A stretch of 64,000 nucleotides of DNA from Escherichia coli. GTDB lineage: Bacteria > Pseudomonadota > Gammaproteobacteria > Enterobacterales > Enterobacteriaceae. Location: assembly GCF_024502345.1 (NCBI RefSeq), contig NZ_JALDNN010000001.1; one strand, given 5' to 3'. Under the pieces are notes generated by a model, which saw nothing but the letters and a program-made list of their open reading frames with translations, was not told where the DNA came from and did not search any database. How positions within the stretch are numbered: position 1 is the stretch's first letter; each line of letters opens with the position of its first letter. Positions 12,703-42,013 of the stretch are shown one piece after another. The translations under genes and the position numbers were made by a program.

Positions 12703-14772
12703 ATGTCTGAGAAAACTTTTCTGGTGGAAATCGGCACTGAAGAGCTGCCACCAAAAGCACTGCGCAGCCTGGCTGAGTCCTTTGCTGCGAATTTTACTGC
12801 GGAGCTGGATAACGCTGGCCTCGCACACGGCACCGTTCAATGGTTTGCTGCTCCGCGTCGTCTGGCGCTGAAAGTAGCTAACCTGGCGGAAGCGCAACCG
12901 GATCGTGAAATCGAAAAACGCGGCCCGGCGATTGCCCAGGCGTTCGACGCTGAAGGCAAACCGAGCAAAGCGGCAGAAGGTTGGGCGCGTGGTTGCGGTA
13001 TTACCGTTGACCAGGCTGAGCGTCTGACTACCGATAAAGGCGAATGGCTGCTGTATCGCGCCCATGTGAAGGGCGAAAGCACCGAAGCACTGCTGCCGAA
13101 TATGGTTGCGACTTCTCTGGCGAAACTGCCGATCCCGAAACTGATGCGTTGGGGCGCAAGCGACGTGCACTTCGTGCGTCCGGTGCACACCGTGACCCTG
13201 CTGCTGGGCGACAAAGTCATTCCGGCAACCATTCTGGGCATTCAGTCCGATCGCGTGATTCGCGGCCACCGCTTTATGGGCGAGCCGGAATTCACCATCG
13301 ATAACGCCGATCAGTATCCGGAAATTCTGCGTGAGCGTGGGAAAGTCATCGCCGATTACGAAGAACGTAAGGCGAAGATTAAAGCCGATGCCGAAGAAGC
13401 AGCGCGTAAGATTGGCGGTAACGCTGACTTAAGCGAAAGCCTGCTGGAAGAAGTGGCTTCGCTGGTGGAGTGGCCGGTCGTTCTGACCGCAAAATTCGAA
13501 GAGAAATTCCTCGCGGTGCCGGCTGAAGCGCTGGTTTACACCATGAAAGGTGACCAGAAATACTTCCCGGTGTATGCGAACGACGGCAAACTGCTGCCGA
13601 ACTTTATCTTCGTTGCCAACATCGAATCGAAAGATCCGCAGCAAATTATCTCTGGTAACGAGAAAGTCGTTCGTCCGCGTCTGGCGGATGCCGAGTTCTT
13701 CTTCAACACCGACCGTAAAAAACGTCTTGAAGATAACCTGCCGCGCCTGCAAACCGTGTTGTTCCAGCAACAGTTGGGGACGCTGCGCGACAAAACTGAC
13801 CGCATCCAGGCGCTGGCTGGCTGGATTGCTGAACAGATTGGCGCTGACGTTAACCACGCTACCCGTGCGGGTCTGCTGTCTAAGTGCGACCTGATGACCA
13901 ACATGGTCTTCGAGTTCACCGACACCCAGGGCGTTATGGGGATGCACTATGCGCGTCACGATGGCGAAGCGGAAGATGTCGCGGTGGCGCTGAATGAGCA
14001 GTATCAGCCGCGCTTTGCCGGTGATGACCTGCCGTCTAACCCGGTAGCCTGTGCGCTGGCGATTGCTGACAAGATGGATACTCTGGCGGGTATCTTCGGT
14101 ATCGGCCAGCATCCGAAAGGCGACAAAGACCCGTTTGCGCTGCGTCGTGCCGCACTTGGCGTGCTGCGAATTATCGTTGAGAAGAACCTCAACCTTGATC
14201 TGCAAACGCTGACCGAAGAAGCGGTGCGTCTGTATGGCGATAAGCTGACTAATGCCAACGTAGTTGATGATGTTATCGACTTTATGCTCGGTCGCTTCCG
14301 CGCCTGGTATCAGGACGAAGGTTATACCGTTGACACCATCCAGGCGGTACTGGCGCGTCGTCCGACTCGTCCGGCTGATTTCGATGCCCGTATGAAAGCG
14401 GTATCGCATTTCCGTACCCTGGATGCAGCTGCTGCACTGGCGGCGGCGAACAAACGTGTATCTAACATTCTGGCGAAATCTGACGAAGTGCTGAGCGATC
14501 GCGTGAATGCCTCTACCCTGAAAGAGCCGGAAGAAATTAAACTGGCGATGCAGGTTGTGGTGCTACGTGACAAGCTGGAGCCGTACTTTGCGGAAGGTCG
14601 TTACCAGGATGCGCTGGTCGAACTGGCTGAGCTGCGTGAACCGGTTGATGCTTTCTTCGATAAAGTGATGGTAATGGTTGATGACAAAGAATTGCGTATC
14701 AACCGTCTGACCATGCTGGAGAAACTGCGCGAACTGTTCCTGCGCGTTGCGGATATTTCGCTGTTGCAGTAA
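12703..14772 (+). CDS. glyS: Glycine--tRNA ligase beta subunit GlyS, 689 aa
   Basis: 689-aa ORF 9 nt downstream of glyQ stop. Confidence 0.97.
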
Positions 14773-14790
14773 TAACGCCGTTATTAAAAA

Positions 14791-14817
14791 GCCTGCCATC
14801 TGGCAGGCTTTTTTTAT
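14791..14817 (+). terminator. Rho-independent terminator of glyQS
   Basis: gcctgcca-tc-tggcaggc stem-loop followed by TTTTTTT. Confidence 0.7.
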
Positions 14818-15097
14818 TATCGCTAAATAATACAGCAACCTTTAATAATCTTCTGCTGAATAAAGATTATCTCATATATTAATTTTATGAGGTTTTTTTA
14901 GGATTATATCAAGGAGAAGAAACAAACTTATTAAGCTAGAATAGCCACGGGTGCTTGAGACTGTTTGTCTCAGGTATTCACCGAAAGGCAGACAGAGAAA
15001 AGCCCCACCTGACTATAAATCAAAGTGAGGCTACCCTATGCCTGAACACCATAAGGTTAGCCTCTTACTCGTTGGAAATCAACACAGGGGGCTGGGA

Positions 15098-15250
15098 ATG
15101 CCGCAGAAATATAGATTACTTTCTTTAATAGTGATTTGTTTCACGCTTTTATTTTTCACCTGGATGATAAGAGATTCACTGTGTGAATTGCATATTAAAC
15201 AGGGGAGTTATGAGCTGGCGGCATTTTTAGCCTGCAATTTAAAAGAGTAA
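15098..15250 (+). CDS. hokA: Hok-family type I toxin HokA, 50 aa
   Basis: MPQKYRLLSLIVICFTLLFFTWMIRDSLCELHIKQGSYELAAFLACNLKE; single TM helix plus conserved Cys pair; 70-aa in-frame extension from 15038 also possible. Confidence 0.8.
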   Translation: MPQKYRLLSLIVICFTLLFFTWMIRDSLCELHIKQGSYELAAFLACNLKE

Positions 15251-15380
15251 GAGTCTTCGGCGGGAAGTTATTCCCGCCTTTCTTACGGCGTTGCGCATTC
15301 TCATTGCACCCAAATTTATTTTTCACAAAAATAATACTAGATTTTATTACGCGATCGATTATTTATTTCCTGAAAAACAA

Positions 15381-15410
15381 ATAAAAAAATCCCCGCCAAA
15401 TGGCAGGGAT
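15381..15410 (-). terminator. Rho-independent terminator downstream of cspA (minus strand)
   Basis: On minus strand: tccctgcc-attt-ggcgggga followed by U-run. Confidence 0.6.
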
Positions 15411-15437
15411 CTTAGATTCTGTGCTTTTAAGCAGAGA

Positions 15438-15650
15438 TTACAGGCTGGTTACGTTACCAGCTGCCGGGCCTTTAGCGCCGCTTTCGATGGTGAAGGACAC
15501 TTTCTGACCTTCGTCCAGAGATTTGTAACCATCGTTCTGGATAGCAGAGAAGTGTACGAACACGTCTTTAGAGCCATCGTCAGGAGTGATGAAGCCGAAG
15601 CCTTTGTCAGCGTTGAACCATTTTACGATACCAGTCATTTTACCGGACAT
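15438..15650 (-). CDS. cspA: Major cold-shock protein CspA, 70 aa
   Basis: [23 protein letters not shown]... exact CspA sequence with RNP1/RNP2 motifs. Confidence 0.97.
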
Positions 15651-15930
15651 AGTGTATTACCTTTAATAATTAAGTGTGCCTTTCGGCGATATGGCGTGCT
15701 TTACAGATTTTGAAGCGTTAAAGGAATGTGCACTACGAGGGGTATCAACGATAACTCTTGAAGGGACTTGCCTTACTACACTGCTTTAATGGTCTGTACG
15801 TCAAACCGTTGATGTGCATTAAGCCACGCATTGGCGGGTGATGCAACAATTATTTTTCATATTTATGATTAATCGGTTGGAAAACGGTCCTGTCATCAGG
15901 ACCGTAAACAGCAATAAAGTGGATAAAAGT

Positions 15931-32891: not shown

Positions 32892-33008
32892 GAACCTCCG
32901 GGGGCAGGGAGGTTCGGCTCGACGTAGGCCTGATAAGACGCGTCAGCGTCGCATCAGGCAACGGCACCGCACTCATTGTCGGATGCAGCGTACCCGTCTT
33001 ATCCGACC
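32892..33008. repeat. BIME-like cluster of REP palindromes
   Basis: aggcctgataagacgcgtcagcgtcgcatcaggc and gtcggatgcagcgtacccgtcttatccgac REP-type units plus gaacctcc...ggaggttc hairpin. Confidence 0.6.
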
Positions 33009-39298: not shown

Positions 39299-40359
39299 TT
39301 ACTCAATCAGCTTCAACAGTGGCGACAAGCATAGCAAAATGCCGTAAAGCAGAATTAGCCAGGCTTTAAATCCGCGAAGTTTTTCCAGTTGTGCGACTTT
39401 ATAGATCAGGAAAAACGGAATGAGGCACGACACAATGCCATATAACGGGCTTCCCAACTGAAAGAACACCAGCACCGATACACGAAACGAAACCCAAATC
39501 GTCAACGTAATGACGATAAAAGCGCAGATCGCCAGAGTCAGCATGCGTGAGTTAATTTTCTTGGTATCAATAATTCGGCTTAACAGATTGAGAATAATGC
39601 CTTTAATAGCCTCGTGGAAACCGAGATAAATGCCAAAGAATGCGGTCAGTACGGCAAAGATATTCAGCACCGTAGAGGTGATATGAATGATATGTCCAGG
39701 GATCACCTGCGCGGCCAGTGCCAGTGCCGAGATATTTTGTTCAAAGGCAGAAACGGCTTCTTCGTGGCTAATTGAGAAGGTAAACGAAAAGGCAAAAAAC
39801 AGGATCACCGCGATGAGCGTGATATAACTAATTCGATGGGTACGCAGCGCGAGCCGGGTTGCCAGTACTTTATCTGCTTCCCGTTTACGATAGGCAATAT
39901 TCATTGGGTTAAGTACCTGAATAAATACCGCAGAAAAGAAGCAAAATGGAATGGTAAGCAGGACATCGCGGAAAAAGACGGAGGCTTGCGGGAAGGCGGT
40001 TATATTGGCGAAATTCCAGTGCGGGATCATCGCAAAACCGAACACGACAATAATCCCTACTTTGACCACCACCATTGGCCCAGAAATCTTAAACAGTAAT
40101 CGTTCACCACCAGACGCAATCGCTACCAGTACGGCGAAAATAGCGACTTTATAAAGTAGAGATTGTGAAAGATCGGCATCGGTTAAACCGAAGGTTTTCA
40201 GGTACGAGGCGCTGTCGAAAACCACGGAGAGAGAGTAGATAAAAATCCCGTGGATAATCATCAAAAAGTAGATAACCCCGAGGAAAATTCCCCAGTTCTT
40301 CCCCAGGTAATGACTGATAATATCGGTGTAGTCATTACAGGAATCGCTTTCAGAAAGGG
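39299..40359 (-). pseudogene. yhjV: 5'-truncated yhjV (amino acid/H+ symporter family transporter); N-terminal ~70 codons and promoter replaced by IS1
   Basis: Hydrophobic transporter reading frame runs with no stop up to the IS1 left end at 40360; ORF track's 321-aa version starts at an internal TTG/ATG. Confidence 0.8.
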
Positions 40360-40414
40360 GGTGATGCTGCCAACTTACTGATTTAGTGTATGATGGTGTT
40401 TTTGAGGTGCTCCA

Positions 40415-40690
40415 GTGGCTTCTGTTTCTATCAGCTGTCCCTCCTGTTCAGCTACTGACGGGGTGGTGCGTAACGGCAAAAGCACCGCCGGACATCAGCG
40501 CTATCTCTGCTCTCACTGCCGTAAAACATGGCAACTGCAGTTCACTTACACCGCTTCTCAACCCGGTACGCACCAGAAAATCATTGATATGGCCATGAAT
40601 GGCGTTGGATGCCGGGCAACCGCCCGCATTATGGGCGTTGGCCTCAACACGATTTTCCGCCATTTAAAAAACTCAGGCCGCAGTCGGTAA
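40415..40690 (+). CDS. insA: IS1 InsA (transposition repressor / N-terminal transposase part), 91 aa
   Basis: [43 protein letters not shown]... zinc-finger plus HTH. Confidence 0.92.
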
Positions 40691-41112
40691 CCTCGCGCAT
40701 ACAGCCGGGCAGTGACGTCATCGTCTGCGCGGAAATGGACGAACAGTGGGGATACGTCGGGGCTAAATCGCGCCAGCGCTGGCTGTTTTACGCGTATGAC
40801 AGGCTCCGGAAGACGGTTGTTGCGCACGTATTCGGTGAACGCACTATGGCGACGCTGGGGCGTCTTATGAGCCTGCTGTCACCCTTTGACGTGGTGATAT
40901 GGATGACGGATGGCTGGCCGCTGTATGAATCCCGCCTGAAGGGAAAGCTGCACGTAATCAGCAAGCGATATACGCAGCGAATTGAGCGGCATAACCTGAA
41001 TCTGAGGCAGCACCTGGCACGGCTGGGACGGAAGTCGCTGTCGTTCTCAAAATCGGTGGAGCTGCATGACAAAGTCATCGGGCATTATCTGAACATAAAA
41101 CACTATCAATAA
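40609..41112 (+). CDS. insB: IS1 InsB reading frame (expressed as InsAB' transposase by -1 frameshifting)
   Basis: 167-aa ORF in -1 frame overlapping insA 3' end, typical IS1 organisation. Confidence 0.88.
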
Positions 41113-41127
41113 GTTGGAGTCATTACC

Positions 41128-42013
41128 GGATTCCGGTGCCAGCGTGGCGGTCGGCTGGCGAAATGACGTCTGGAGCTGGGATATCGGTACCACGCCGATG
41201 GGCTTCAACGTGGTGGATGTGGTCGGCGGCATCAGTTACAGCGATGATATCGGGCCGCTGGGTTACACCGTTAACGCCCACCGTCGGCCCATCTCCAGTT
41301 CTTTGCTGGCCTTTGGTGGGCAAAAAGACTCCCCGAGCAATACCGGGAAAAAATGGGGTGGCGTACGTGCCGACGGTGTGGGGCTAAGTCTGAGCTACGA
41401 TAAAGGTGAAGCAAATGGCGTCTGGGCATCGCTTAGTGGCGACCAGTTAACCGGTAAAAATGTCGAAGATAACTGGCGCGTGCGCTGGATGACGGGCTAT
41501 TACTATAAGGTCATTAACCAGAACAATCGCCGCGTCACAATCGGCCTGAACAACATGATCTGGCATTACGACAAAGATCTGAGTGGTTACTCACTCGGTC
41601 AGGGCGGTTACTACAGTCCGCAGGAATACCTGTCGTTTGCCATACCGGTGATGTGGCGGGAGCGCACGGAAAACTGGTCGTGGGAGCTGGGGGCGTCTGG
41701 CTCGTGGTCGCATTCACGCACCAAAACCATGCCGCGTTATCCGCTGATGAATCTGATCCCGACCGACTGGCAGGAAGAAGCTGCGCGGCAATCCAACGAT
41801 GGCGGCAGCAGTCAGGGCTTCGGCTATACGGCGCGGGCATTACTTGAACGACGTGTTACTTCCAACTGGTTTGTCGGCACGGCAATTGATATCCAGCAGG
41901 CGAAAGATTACGCCCCCAGCCATTTCCTGCTCTACGTACGTTATTCCGCCGCCGGATGGCAGGGTGACATGGATTTACCGCCGCAGCCGCTGATACCTTA
42001 CGCCGACTGGTAA
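41128..42013 (+). pseudogene. bcsC: 3' remnant (about 295 codons) of cellulose synthase operon protein BcsC (outer-membrane beta-barrel part)
   Basis: Frame continues from IS1 right end; ends ...PQPLIPYADW; full BcsC is about 1150 aa so the TPR region and start are absent. Confidence 0.85.

What the first reader, a model, noticed from the sequence alone, without database searches (positions are those of the whole stretch)
14820..15250. hokA type I toxin locus not interrupted by an insertion sequence
Between the glyS terminator and cspA there is a complete Hok-family ORF (50 aa, with an in-frame 70-aa upstream extension) preceded by inverted repeats (cttgagac...gtctcagg) typical of the folded hok mRNA leader. 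No IS element is present here, whereas I recall an IS150 next to hokA in K-12 that is thought to inactivate the locus. The locus may therefore retain its regulatory architecture (mok-like leader ORF, antisense Sok-like RNA), though chromosomal hok loci are often inactive for other reasons.
Basis: partly seen in the sequence, partly recalled or inferred. Interest (0 to 1): 0.4.

Follow-up and report, generated by a model that had tools for sequence, protein, structure and literature searches.

The report
Uninterrupted hokA/sokA toxin–antitoxin locus
This is the ordinary, uninterrupted form of the E. coli chromosomal hokA/mokA/sokA small-toxin/antisense-RNA locus, found in about half of all complete E. 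coli genomes and already characterised from E. coli C in 1999, so it is real but not new.

Summary
A 50-aa Hok-family ORF (15098-15250) lies between glyS and cspA. It has an in-frame 70-aa upstream extension (mokA, from 15038) and a structured leader, and there is no insertion sequence.

The leader matches Rfam RF01794 at 124.9 bits (cutoff 59). The protein matches the NCBIfam HokA equivalog at 131.9 bits (cutoff 89). The predicted 367-nt mRNA folds far better than shuffles (z = -9.6). Its 5' end pairs with a 3' element, and when the 3' tail is removed the 5' end refolds as described for R1 hok (that description is from memory). A Sok-like antisense promoter, stem-loop and U-tail lie on the minus strand.

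K-12 does carry IS150 here. It sits inside the mokA/sokA leader and comes with a 39-bp deletion.

The IS-free state is the majority: 2819 of 5426 complete E. coli genomes. From the hokA -10 box to the 3' hairpin the window is identical to E. coli C. That allele was characterised by Pedersen and Gerdes (1999) and reported not to mediate post-segregational killing or rifampicin-induced killing.

Verdict: already known, low interest.

The parts
14786..14813 (+). glyS intrinsic terminator; left boundary of the locus
   Evidence: 12-bp stem, 4-nt loop and T-run. glyS CDS ends at 14772.
14937..14942 (+). Inferred hokA promoter -10 box TAGAAT. No good -35 box, so a weak promoter is inferred.
   Evidence: Lies 7 nt upstream of the predicted +1 at 14949. 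Same position as TATGAT in the R1-type hok alignment. The consensus promoter scan did not call it.
14949..15315 (+). Predicted full-length hokA mRNA (about 367 nt). The 5' end is set by homology; the 3' end is approximate.
   Evidence: The Rfam RF01794 match starts at 14949 at model position 1. MFE -139.8 kcal/mol, z = -9.64 against 100 shuffles.
14949..15008 (+). 5' tac region, including the inverted repeat CTTGAGAC (14954-14961) / GTCTCAGG (14967-14974). It pairs with fbi in the full-length RNA and with 15000-15006 in the truncated RNA.
   Evidence: Folds of full-length and truncated RNA. Rfam consensus structure.
15027..15064 (+). Sok-target hairpin containing the mokA SD (GAGG, 15027-15030) and the mokA ATG (15038)
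   Evidence: Third hairpin of the Rfam RF01794 alignment. Loop accessibility rises from 0.48 to 0.77 on truncation.
15038..15250 (+). mokA reading frame (70 codons), in frame with hokA and sharing its stop codon
   Evidence: ORF list. K-12 annotates the truncated remnant as the mokA pseudogene.
15054..15082 (-). Predicted sokA promoter: -35 TTGATT (15082-15077), 17-nt spacer, -10 TAACCT (15059-15054)
   Evidence: Positional homology with TTGCGC / 17 nt / TATCCT of the R1-type locus. Not called by the consensus scan.
14994..15046 (-). Predicted SokA antisense RNA (about 52-55 nt): single-stranded 5' tail, long stem-loop, U-rich tail. Ends are approximate.
   Evidence: Fold at -18.7 to -24.8 kcal/mol, with the same shape as the R1-type Sok. 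PMC3562002 gives a 52-bp hokA target.
15098..15250 (+). hokA toxin CDS (50 aa; Cys14, Cys29, Cys46)
   Evidence: Pfam HOK_GEF 83.2 bits. NCBIfam HokA equivalog 131.9 bits. Same protein accession, WP_001135738.1, as E. coli C.
15259..15278 (+). 3' G+C-rich hairpin. Inferred to be the 3' end protector of the processed (truncated) mRNA.
   Evidence: 8-bp stem with 6 G-C pairs. Aligns with the GGCGGGC...GCCCGCC hairpin of R1-type hok.
15299..15311 (+). fbi (fold-back inhibition) element UCUCAUUGCACCC, pairing with the mRNA 5' end
   Evidence: Pairs 14949-54/15306-11 and 14956-60/15299-303, with probabilities of 0.85-1.0. Duplex -18.9 kcal/mol against -9.65 +/- 2.28 for shuffled tails (3 of 2000 as good). 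Conserved in Klebsiella hokA; compensatory relative to R1.
15386..15413 (-). cspA terminator; right boundary of the locus
   Evidence: Terminator scan. Inside the cspA thermoregulator Rfam match at 15383-15810.

Best explanation
The region is the ancestral, uninterrupted hokA-mokA-sokA type I toxin-antitoxin locus of the E. coli chromosome.

Shown here: a HokA toxin ORF, an in-frame overlapping mokA ORF, a leader that fits the hok-leader covariance model, and an exceptionally stable predicted mRNA fold. In that fold the 5' end (tac) pairs with a 3' element (fbi).

Inferred by analogy with hok/sok of plasmid R1:
- A weak promoter makes a stable full-length hokA mRNA that is locked by the 5'-3' pairing, so it is neither translated nor bound by antisense RNA.
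- Slow 3' trimming back to the hairpin at 15259-15278 removes fbi.
- The 5' end then refolds and exposes the mokA translation start and the Sok-target hairpin.
- The short SokA RNA, made from the opposite strand, pairs there, blocks mokA (and hence the coupled hokA) translation, and triggers decay.
- If SokA is lost, HokA is made and depolarises the inner membrane.

According to the literature, the allele identical over this transcription unit (E. coli C) does not give post-segregational killing and is not activated by rifampicin. The physiological trigger, if there is one, is unknown.
For: Toxin:
- Pfam HOK_GEF 83.2 bits and NCBIfam HokA equivalog 131.9 bits against a cutoff of 89.

Leader:
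- Rfam RF01794 124.9 bits against a gathering score of 59, full model length, starting at 14949.

mRNA fold:
- Full-length MFE -139.8 kcal/mol, z = -9.64.
- The end-pairing helix has base-pair probabilities near 1. It beats all but 3 of 2000 shuffled tails.
- The truncated RNA refolds its 5' end onto 15000-15006.
- The same end pairing is predicted for R1-type hok, Klebsiella hokA and E. coli C hokA. The difference between R1 (GGCGC/GCGCC) and hokA (GGGUGC/GCACCC) is compensatory.

Antisense:
- The promoter, 5' tail, stem-loop and U-tail parallel those of R1-type Sok.

Identity with the studied allele:
- 100% identical to E. coli C from 14925 to 15292, that is from the -10 box through the 3' hairpin. 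The HokA protein accession is the same.

Literature:
- hokA/sokA was characterised from E. coli C (PMC3562002).
- It gave no PSK and no rifampicin activation, and HokA was toxic on overexpression (bioRxiv 10.1101/2025.08.07.668861).
- K-12 hokA is regarded as inactivated by an insertion element (PMC12214031).
Against: There are no expression data for this strain. The promoters, transcript ends and SokA are inferred from homology and folding only.

Neither promoter passed the simple sigma-70 consensus scan. The sokA -10 box is TAACCT, where the R1-type has TATCCT.

Published work on the identical allele found no killing phenotype under the classic triggers. 'Intact' therefore does not establish 'active'.

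The primary paper (Pedersen and Gerdes 1999) could not be read here. Its content is taken from papers that cite it.
Confidence: 0.88

Rival explanations
1. The locus is intact in sequence but is a functional fossil. It looks complete, yet it is not expressed or regulated to any physiological effect, and it persists only because it is harmless.
For: The allele identical over the transcription unit (E. coli C) gave no PSK and no rifampicin activation, and its authors suggested that chromosomal hok/sok loci are inactive. About 48% of E. coli genomes tolerate IS150 disruption of the locus. Some IS-free alleles carry other lesions: strain S87 has a 17-bp deletion of the mRNA 5' end, and SE15 has a 1-bp deletion that shifts mokA plus an fbi G-to-A change. 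The consensus scan called no promoter here.
Against: hokA sits immediately after glyS in Klebsiella pneumoniae as well. There the ORF, the 5' end and fbi are conserved although the DNA is only 78% identical overall. The fold z-score of -9.6 and the perfect retention of all elements in the window argue for continued constraint. HokA is toxic when overexpressed.
Confidence: 0.1
2. The Hok-like ORF and the inverted repeats are chance features of an AT-rich intergenic spacer. The spacer's only role is to carry the glyS and cspA terminators.
For: None beyond the short length of the ORF and of the 8-bp inverted repeat.
Against: E-values are 9e-24 (Pfam), 6e-39 (NCBIfam) and 8e-30 (Rfam), and the fold z-score is -9.6. 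RefSeq annotates the gene as hokA in the sampled genomes.
Confidence: 0.01

Closest known systems
hokA/sokA of Escherichia coli C (Pedersen and Gerdes 1999, Mol Microbiol 32:1090; known here through citing papers)
   Same: Same chromosomal site (glyS-hokA-cspA) and no IS. The DNA is 100% identical from 14925 to 15292: the hokA -10 box, +1, tac, mokA, sokA promoter and body, hokA CDS and 3' hairpin. The HokA protein accession is identical, WP_001135738.1.
   Different: Only flanking differences. These are A/G at 14924 upstream of the -10 box, GC versus A- at 15293-15294 just 5' of fbi, T/C at 15321 after fbi, and a few bases near the glyS terminator.
hok/mok/sok (parB) of plasmid R1 and related IncF plasmids
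   Same: Same architecture element by element in the alignment: 5' GG(N)GCUUGAG tac, mok SD and ATG inside a target hairpin, antisense promoter at the same position, Hok ORF, 3' hairpin and fbi about 35 nt further on. It is the same Rfam and Pfam family.
   Different: HokA is only about 38% identical to R1 Hok. mokA is in frame with hokA and shares its stop codon. The locus is chromosomal. It is reported not to mediate post-segregational killing.
hokA locus of E. coli K-12 MG1655 (b4455, mokA and sokA pseudogenes, IS150)
   Same: Same gene at the same site. The flanks are about 97% identical.
   Different: K-12 has a 1443-bp IS150 between window positions 15026 and 15066. It lacks the 39 bp at 15027-15065, so hokA is cut off from its promoter, tac, and the mokA start, and sokA loses its -10 box and 5' end. 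K-12 HokA also differs at G35E and N47K.

Membership tests
Hok/Gef toxin family (Pfam PF01848; NCBIfam NF007290 HokA equivalog) | A membrane peptide of about 50 aa that matches the family profile above the curated cutoff | tested here: met
   PF01848 at 83.2 bits (cutoff 22). NF007290 at 131.9 bits (cutoff 89), full length 1-50.
Hok/Gef toxin family (Pfam PF01848; NCBIfam NF007290 HokA equivalog) | Conserved cysteines at positions 14, 29 and 46, needed for toxicity in HokB studies | tested here: met
   Cys14, Cys29 and Cys46 are all DNA-encoded in the translation. Their significance is described in PMC12214031 and the 2025 preprint.
[quoted passage not shown] | Structured hok mRNA leader matching the curated covariance model (Rfam RF01794) | tested here: met
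   124.9 bits against a gathering score of 59, model positions 1-157, at 14949-15100 (+).
[quoted passage not shown] | An overlapping mok reading frame that starts upstream of hok, with its own SD inside the antisense target | tested here: met
   ATG at 15038 preceded by GAGG at 15027-15030. The frame is 70 codons and ends at the hokA stop. Translational coupling itself cannot be tested here.
[quoted passage not shown] | A cis-encoded antisense Sok RNA with its own promoter and terminator, complementary to the mok translation initiation region | tested here: inconclusive
   Sequence homologues of the R1-type -35, -10, 5' tail, stem-loop and U-tail are present at 15082-14994 (-). The consensus scan did not call the promoter, and no transcript data are available.
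[quoted passage not shown] | fbi-tac pairing of the mRNA 5' and 3' ends, and refolding after 3' truncation | tested here: met
   In silico only. Pair probabilities are 0.85-1.0, the duplex is -18.9 kcal/mol (3 of 2000 shuffles as good), and the truncated RNA refolds. The pairing is conserved or compensated in Klebsiella and R1-type loci.
[quoted passage not shown] | Post-segregational killing, or killing after transcription arrest with rifampicin | not testable with these tools
   Reported negative for the E. coli C allele, which is identical over the transcription unit (bioRxiv 10.1101/2025.08.07.668861 citing Pedersen and Gerdes 1999). The locus is therefore a member by sequence and architecture, but not shown to share the plasmid phenotype.

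The most novel reading that the evidence does not exclude
The intact hokA/sokA module may be a functional on/off polymorphism in E. coli. The complete allele would do something selectable, such as phage exclusion or stress-induced dormancy. The repeated IS150 hits within a 4-bp spot of the Sok-target hairpin would then reflect either recurrent selection to silence it or a structural target preference of IS150. Those hits occur in two orientations, on at least two leader alleles, and together in about 48% of genomes. The clustered substitutions in the Sok-target loop among alleles would reflect diversification of antisense specificity.
Probability: 0.12. Interest if true: 0.4.

Novelty: already known. 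Interest (0 to 1): 0.1.

Why it matters
It matters little as a discovery. The locus, its architecture and the K-12 IS150 disruption were described in 1999, and RefSeq already annotates hokA here.

The practical value is as a reminder. K-12 is the atypical, disrupted state at this locus, whereas about half of E. coli carry a complete hokA/mokA/sokA module. Studies of chromosomal type I toxins based on K-12 therefore miss it.

The population counts obtained here are 52% intact, 31% K-12-type IS150 with deletion, and about 17% with a second, oppositely oriented IS150 at the same spot. They are a modest and possibly useful by-product.

Tried and rejected
1. The primary paper (PubMed 10361310) and a review I recalled as PMC2593563 could not be read; neither is held. 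Their content is cited second-hand.

2. A literature search for 'hokA' plus 'IS150' returned only irrelevant papers.

3. The junction count for the second IS150 class gave 1167 genomes. That figure is inconsistent with the other two counts (2819 + 1667 + 1167 exceeds 5426), so I treat it as inflated. I use about 940 instead, obtained by subtraction. This agrees with the 7 of 40 evenly spaced rows.

4. The weak Rfam hits on the glyS and cspA terminators (STnc370, leader families, istR and others, all below gathering score) were dismissed as terminator look-alikes.

5. The consensus promoter scan found neither the hokA nor the sokA promoter. Both are placed by homology only.

6. Identifying the source strain failed. 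The usher protein look-up returned only assembly accessions without organism names. The IS1 junction matched none of the 5426 E. coli genomes.

7. The first guess at E. coli C coordinates missed the locus. It was found on the third fetch.

8. I did not run the expensive metagenome, genome-collection or protein-database scans. The answer was already clear.

Full report
**1. What is in the sequence**

glyS (12703-14772, +) ends with a strong terminator hairpin at 14786-14813. cspA lies on the minus strand at 15438-15650. Its thermoregulator and terminator match Rfam RF01766 across 15383-15810.

Between them, the + strand carries an ORF at 15038-15250 (70 aa). Its internal ATG at 15098 gives a 50-aa peptide, MPQKYRLLSLIVICFTLLFFTWMIRDSLCELHIKQGSYELAAFLACNLKE. 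This peptide matches Pfam HOK_GEF at 83.2 bits (cutoff 22). It also matches the NCBIfam HokA equivalog NF007290 over its full length at 131.9 bits (cutoff 89).

It lies inside a full-length match to Rfam RF01794 at 14949-15100, + strand, with 124.9 bits against a gathering score of 59 and E = 8e-30. That family is called 'sok antitoxin', but the match is on the sense strand and ends at the hok ATG, so it corresponds to the hok mRNA leader.

No insertion sequence lies between glyS and cspA.

**2. Anatomy**

I aligned the window with an R1-type IncFII hok locus that encodes a Hok identical to the R1 sequence I supplied (L004), and with Klebsiella hokA (L005). The alignment places each element.

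- *hokA promoter and 5' end.* The mRNA 5' end GGGUGCUUGAGAC starts at 14949. A -10 box, TAGAAT, lies at 14937-14942. There is no convincing -35 box.
- *mokA start.* The SD (GAGG, 15027-15030) and the ATG (15038) sit inside a hairpin at 15027-15064. This hairpin corresponds to the Sok-target stem-loop.
- *sokA promoter (minus strand).* The -35 box is TTGATT (15082-15077), followed by a 17-nt spacer and the -10 box TAACCT (15059-15054). It aligns with TTGCGC / 17 nt / TATCCT of the R1-type locus.
- *SokA RNA.* The predicted RNA runs from about 15046 to 14994. It has a single-stranded 5' tail, a long stem-loop and a UUUUCUCU tail, the same shape as the R1-type Sok. A citing paper gives a 52-bp SokA target for hokA (PMC3562002).
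- *3' region.* Downstream of the hokA stop there is a G+C-rich hairpin at 15259-15278. About 20 nt further on lies UCUCAUUGCACCC (15299-15311).

**3. Folding tests**

- *Overall stability.* The predicted full-length RNA (14949-15315) has an MFE of -139.8 kcal/mol. Dinucleotide shuffles give -94.6 +/- 4.7, so z = -9.64.
- *End pairing.* In both the MFE structure and the ensemble, the 5' end pairs with the 3' element. The pairs are 14949-54 with 15306-11 and 14956-60 with 15299-303, with probabilities of 0.85-1.0.
- *Significance of the end duplex.* It is -18.9 kcal/mol, against -9.65 +/- 2.28 for shuffled 3' tails. Only 3 of 2000 shuffles were as good.
- *Refolding.* When the RNA is cut after the 3' hairpin (14949-15281), the 5' end refolds onto 15000-15006. 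This is the structure in the Rfam consensus. The target-loop accessibility rises from 0.48 to 0.77.
- *Conservation.* The same 5'-3' pairing is predicted for the R1-type hok, Klebsiella hokA and E. coli C hokA. R1 uses GGCGC/GCGCC where hokA uses GGGUGC/GCACCC, which is a compensatory difference.

This is the fbi/tac design as I recall it for R1 hok mRNA. It is shown here only in silico.

**4. Comparison with K-12 and the population**

K-12 MG1655 carries a 1443-bp IS150 annotated between sokA and mokA pseudogene remnants. Its flanks map to window 15026 on the left and 15066 on the right. K-12 therefore also lacks the 39 bp at 15027-15065. That stretch holds the mokA SD and ATG, the sokA -10 box and the SokA 5' end. 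K-12 HokA also differs at G35E and N47K.

Among 5426 complete E. coli genomes:

- 2819 (52%) hold 14940-15330 in one uninterrupted piece.
- 1667 (31%) carry the K-12-type IS150/hokA junction.
- The remaining roughly 940 (17%) are mostly a second class. It has IS150 in the opposite orientation, as a simple insertion with a 3-bp AAG duplication at window 15023-15025.

The direct junction count for this second class, 1167, is inconsistent with the other two counts, so I treat it as inflated.

The IS-free state is therefore the majority state.

**5. Identity with the characterised allele**

E. coli C (NZ_CP020543.1) has glyS-hokA-cspA without an IS, and the same HokA accession, WP_001135738.1. The window and E. 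coli C are identical at every base from 14925 to 15292. This covers the hokA -10 box, +1, tac, mokA, the sokA promoter and body, the hokA CDS and the 3' hairpin.

The only differences in and immediately around the transcription unit are:

- 14924, upstream of the -10 box;
- 15293-15294, just 5' of fbi;
- 15321, after fbi.

A few more lie further upstream, near the glyS terminator.

According to papers held in the library, hokA/sokA was characterised from E. coli C by Pedersen and Gerdes 1999 (PMC3562002). The E. coli C hokA locus did not mediate post-segregational killing and was not activated by rifampicin. The HokA ORF was toxic when overexpressed (bioRxiv 10.1101/2025.08.07.668861). K-12 hokA is regarded as inactivated by an insertion element (PMC12214031). 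I could not read the 1999 paper itself.

**6. Not every IS-free allele is intact**

Six IS-free alleles from other genomes, including E. coli C, were aligned with the window.

- Strain S87 has a 17-bp deletion (14944-14960) that removes the mRNA 5' end.
- SE15 and S87 lack the A at 15097, which shifts mokA out of frame with hokA. They also carry an fbi G15306A change.
- Two alleles (10671, RM14516) carry a tight cluster of seven substitutions at 15032-15045, in the Sok-target hairpin.

The window carries none of these changes. It matches E. coli C, the experimentally studied allele, exactly.

**7. Mechanism and confidence**

With confidence of about 0.88, this is the complete hokA/mokA/sokA type I toxin-antitoxin locus.

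The R1-like steps are inferred from homology and folding, not observed: a locked full-length mRNA, 3' trimming, refolding, SokA pairing at the mokA start, and HokA membrane damage if SokA is lost. The main rival is that the locus is complete in sequence but physiologically inert. The published negative PSK and rifampicin results support that rival, as does the frequency of disrupted alleles. Against it stand the conservation of hokA directly after glyS in Klebsiella at only 78% DNA identity, with the ORF, 5' end and fbi preserved, and the extreme fold z-score.

**8. Verdict**

The finding is accurate and its interpretation is supported, but it is already known and common. Interest is 0.1.

Noticed in passing
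window 40360-41127 (context 39299-42013): An IS1 element (InsA 40415-40690, InsB 40609-41112) replaces about 14 kb that E. coli C carries here: part of bcsC, bcsZ, bcsB, bcsA, bcsQ, bcsR, bcsE, bcsF, bcsG, ldrD and the 5' part of yhjV. The strain therefore lacks most of the cellulose-synthesis operon and the ldrD/rdlD type I toxin locus. This yhjV-IS1 junction is present in none of the 5426 complete E. coli genomes. The window may come from Shigella or from an unusual strain.
   Followed up: partly
window 24888-30790: A 5.9-kb chaperone-usher fimbrial operon lies between eptB and yhjX and is absent from E. coli C. It comprises a fimbrial subunit (25226-25762), a PapD-like chaperone (25815-26513), an usher (26542-29115) and two more fimbrial-domain ORFs. 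From memory, the position fits the lpf (long polar fimbriae) island. The fourth gene is 294 aa here from a TTG start, against 351 aa in other genomes that carry the identical usher, so it may be damaged.
   Followed up: partly
window 15239-15298 (-): A 19-codon ORF antisense to the hokA 3' end and 3' UTR. RefSeq annotates it as a hypothetical protein in genomes identical here. It corresponds to the small protein gene ysaE (23 aa) of K-12. It overlaps the hokA stop, the 3' hairpin and the region just 5' of fbi. I did not examine whether its translation or transcription interferes with hokA mRNA.
   Followed up: no
window 15023-15027 (in other genomes: L001, L002, L018): IS150 has entered the hokA leader within the same 4-5 bases in two opposite orientations. 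One is the K-12 type with a 39-bp deletion. The other is a simple insertion with a 3-bp AAG duplication. The second type occurs on two different leader alleles (L002 and L018). This suggests an IS150 hot spot at the base of the Sok-target hairpin, or recombination between lineages.
   Followed up: partly
window 15032-15045 (alleles L013, L016, L018): Some E. coli lineages carry seven clustered substitutions in the Sok-target hairpin, which also holds the SokA 5' tail and the mokA N-terminus (MPEH becomes MHRH). The rest of the leader is nearly invariant. This could be diversification of antisense specificity. It was not tested.
   Followed up: no
L005 (Klebsiella pneumoniae CP052389.1) 1-988: hokA lies immediately downstream of glyS in Klebsiella pneumoniae too, so the glyS-hokA linkage predates the Escherichia/Klebsiella split. 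The record is labelled a plasmid, but it carries glyS and is probably a chromosome fragment.
   Followed up: no
window 32757-33008 and 62724-62837: Other RNA genes above Rfam gathering scores are a tRNA at 32757-32830 (+), naRNA4 (REP-derived) at 32927-33008 (-) and GadY at 62724-62837 (-).
   Followed up: no
window 14839-14890: The AT-rich spacer upstream of the hokA promoter contains short inverted repeats seen by eye (ATAATCTT...AAGATTAT and CTCATA...TATGAG). They were not tested against chance or checked for conservation.
   Followed up: no
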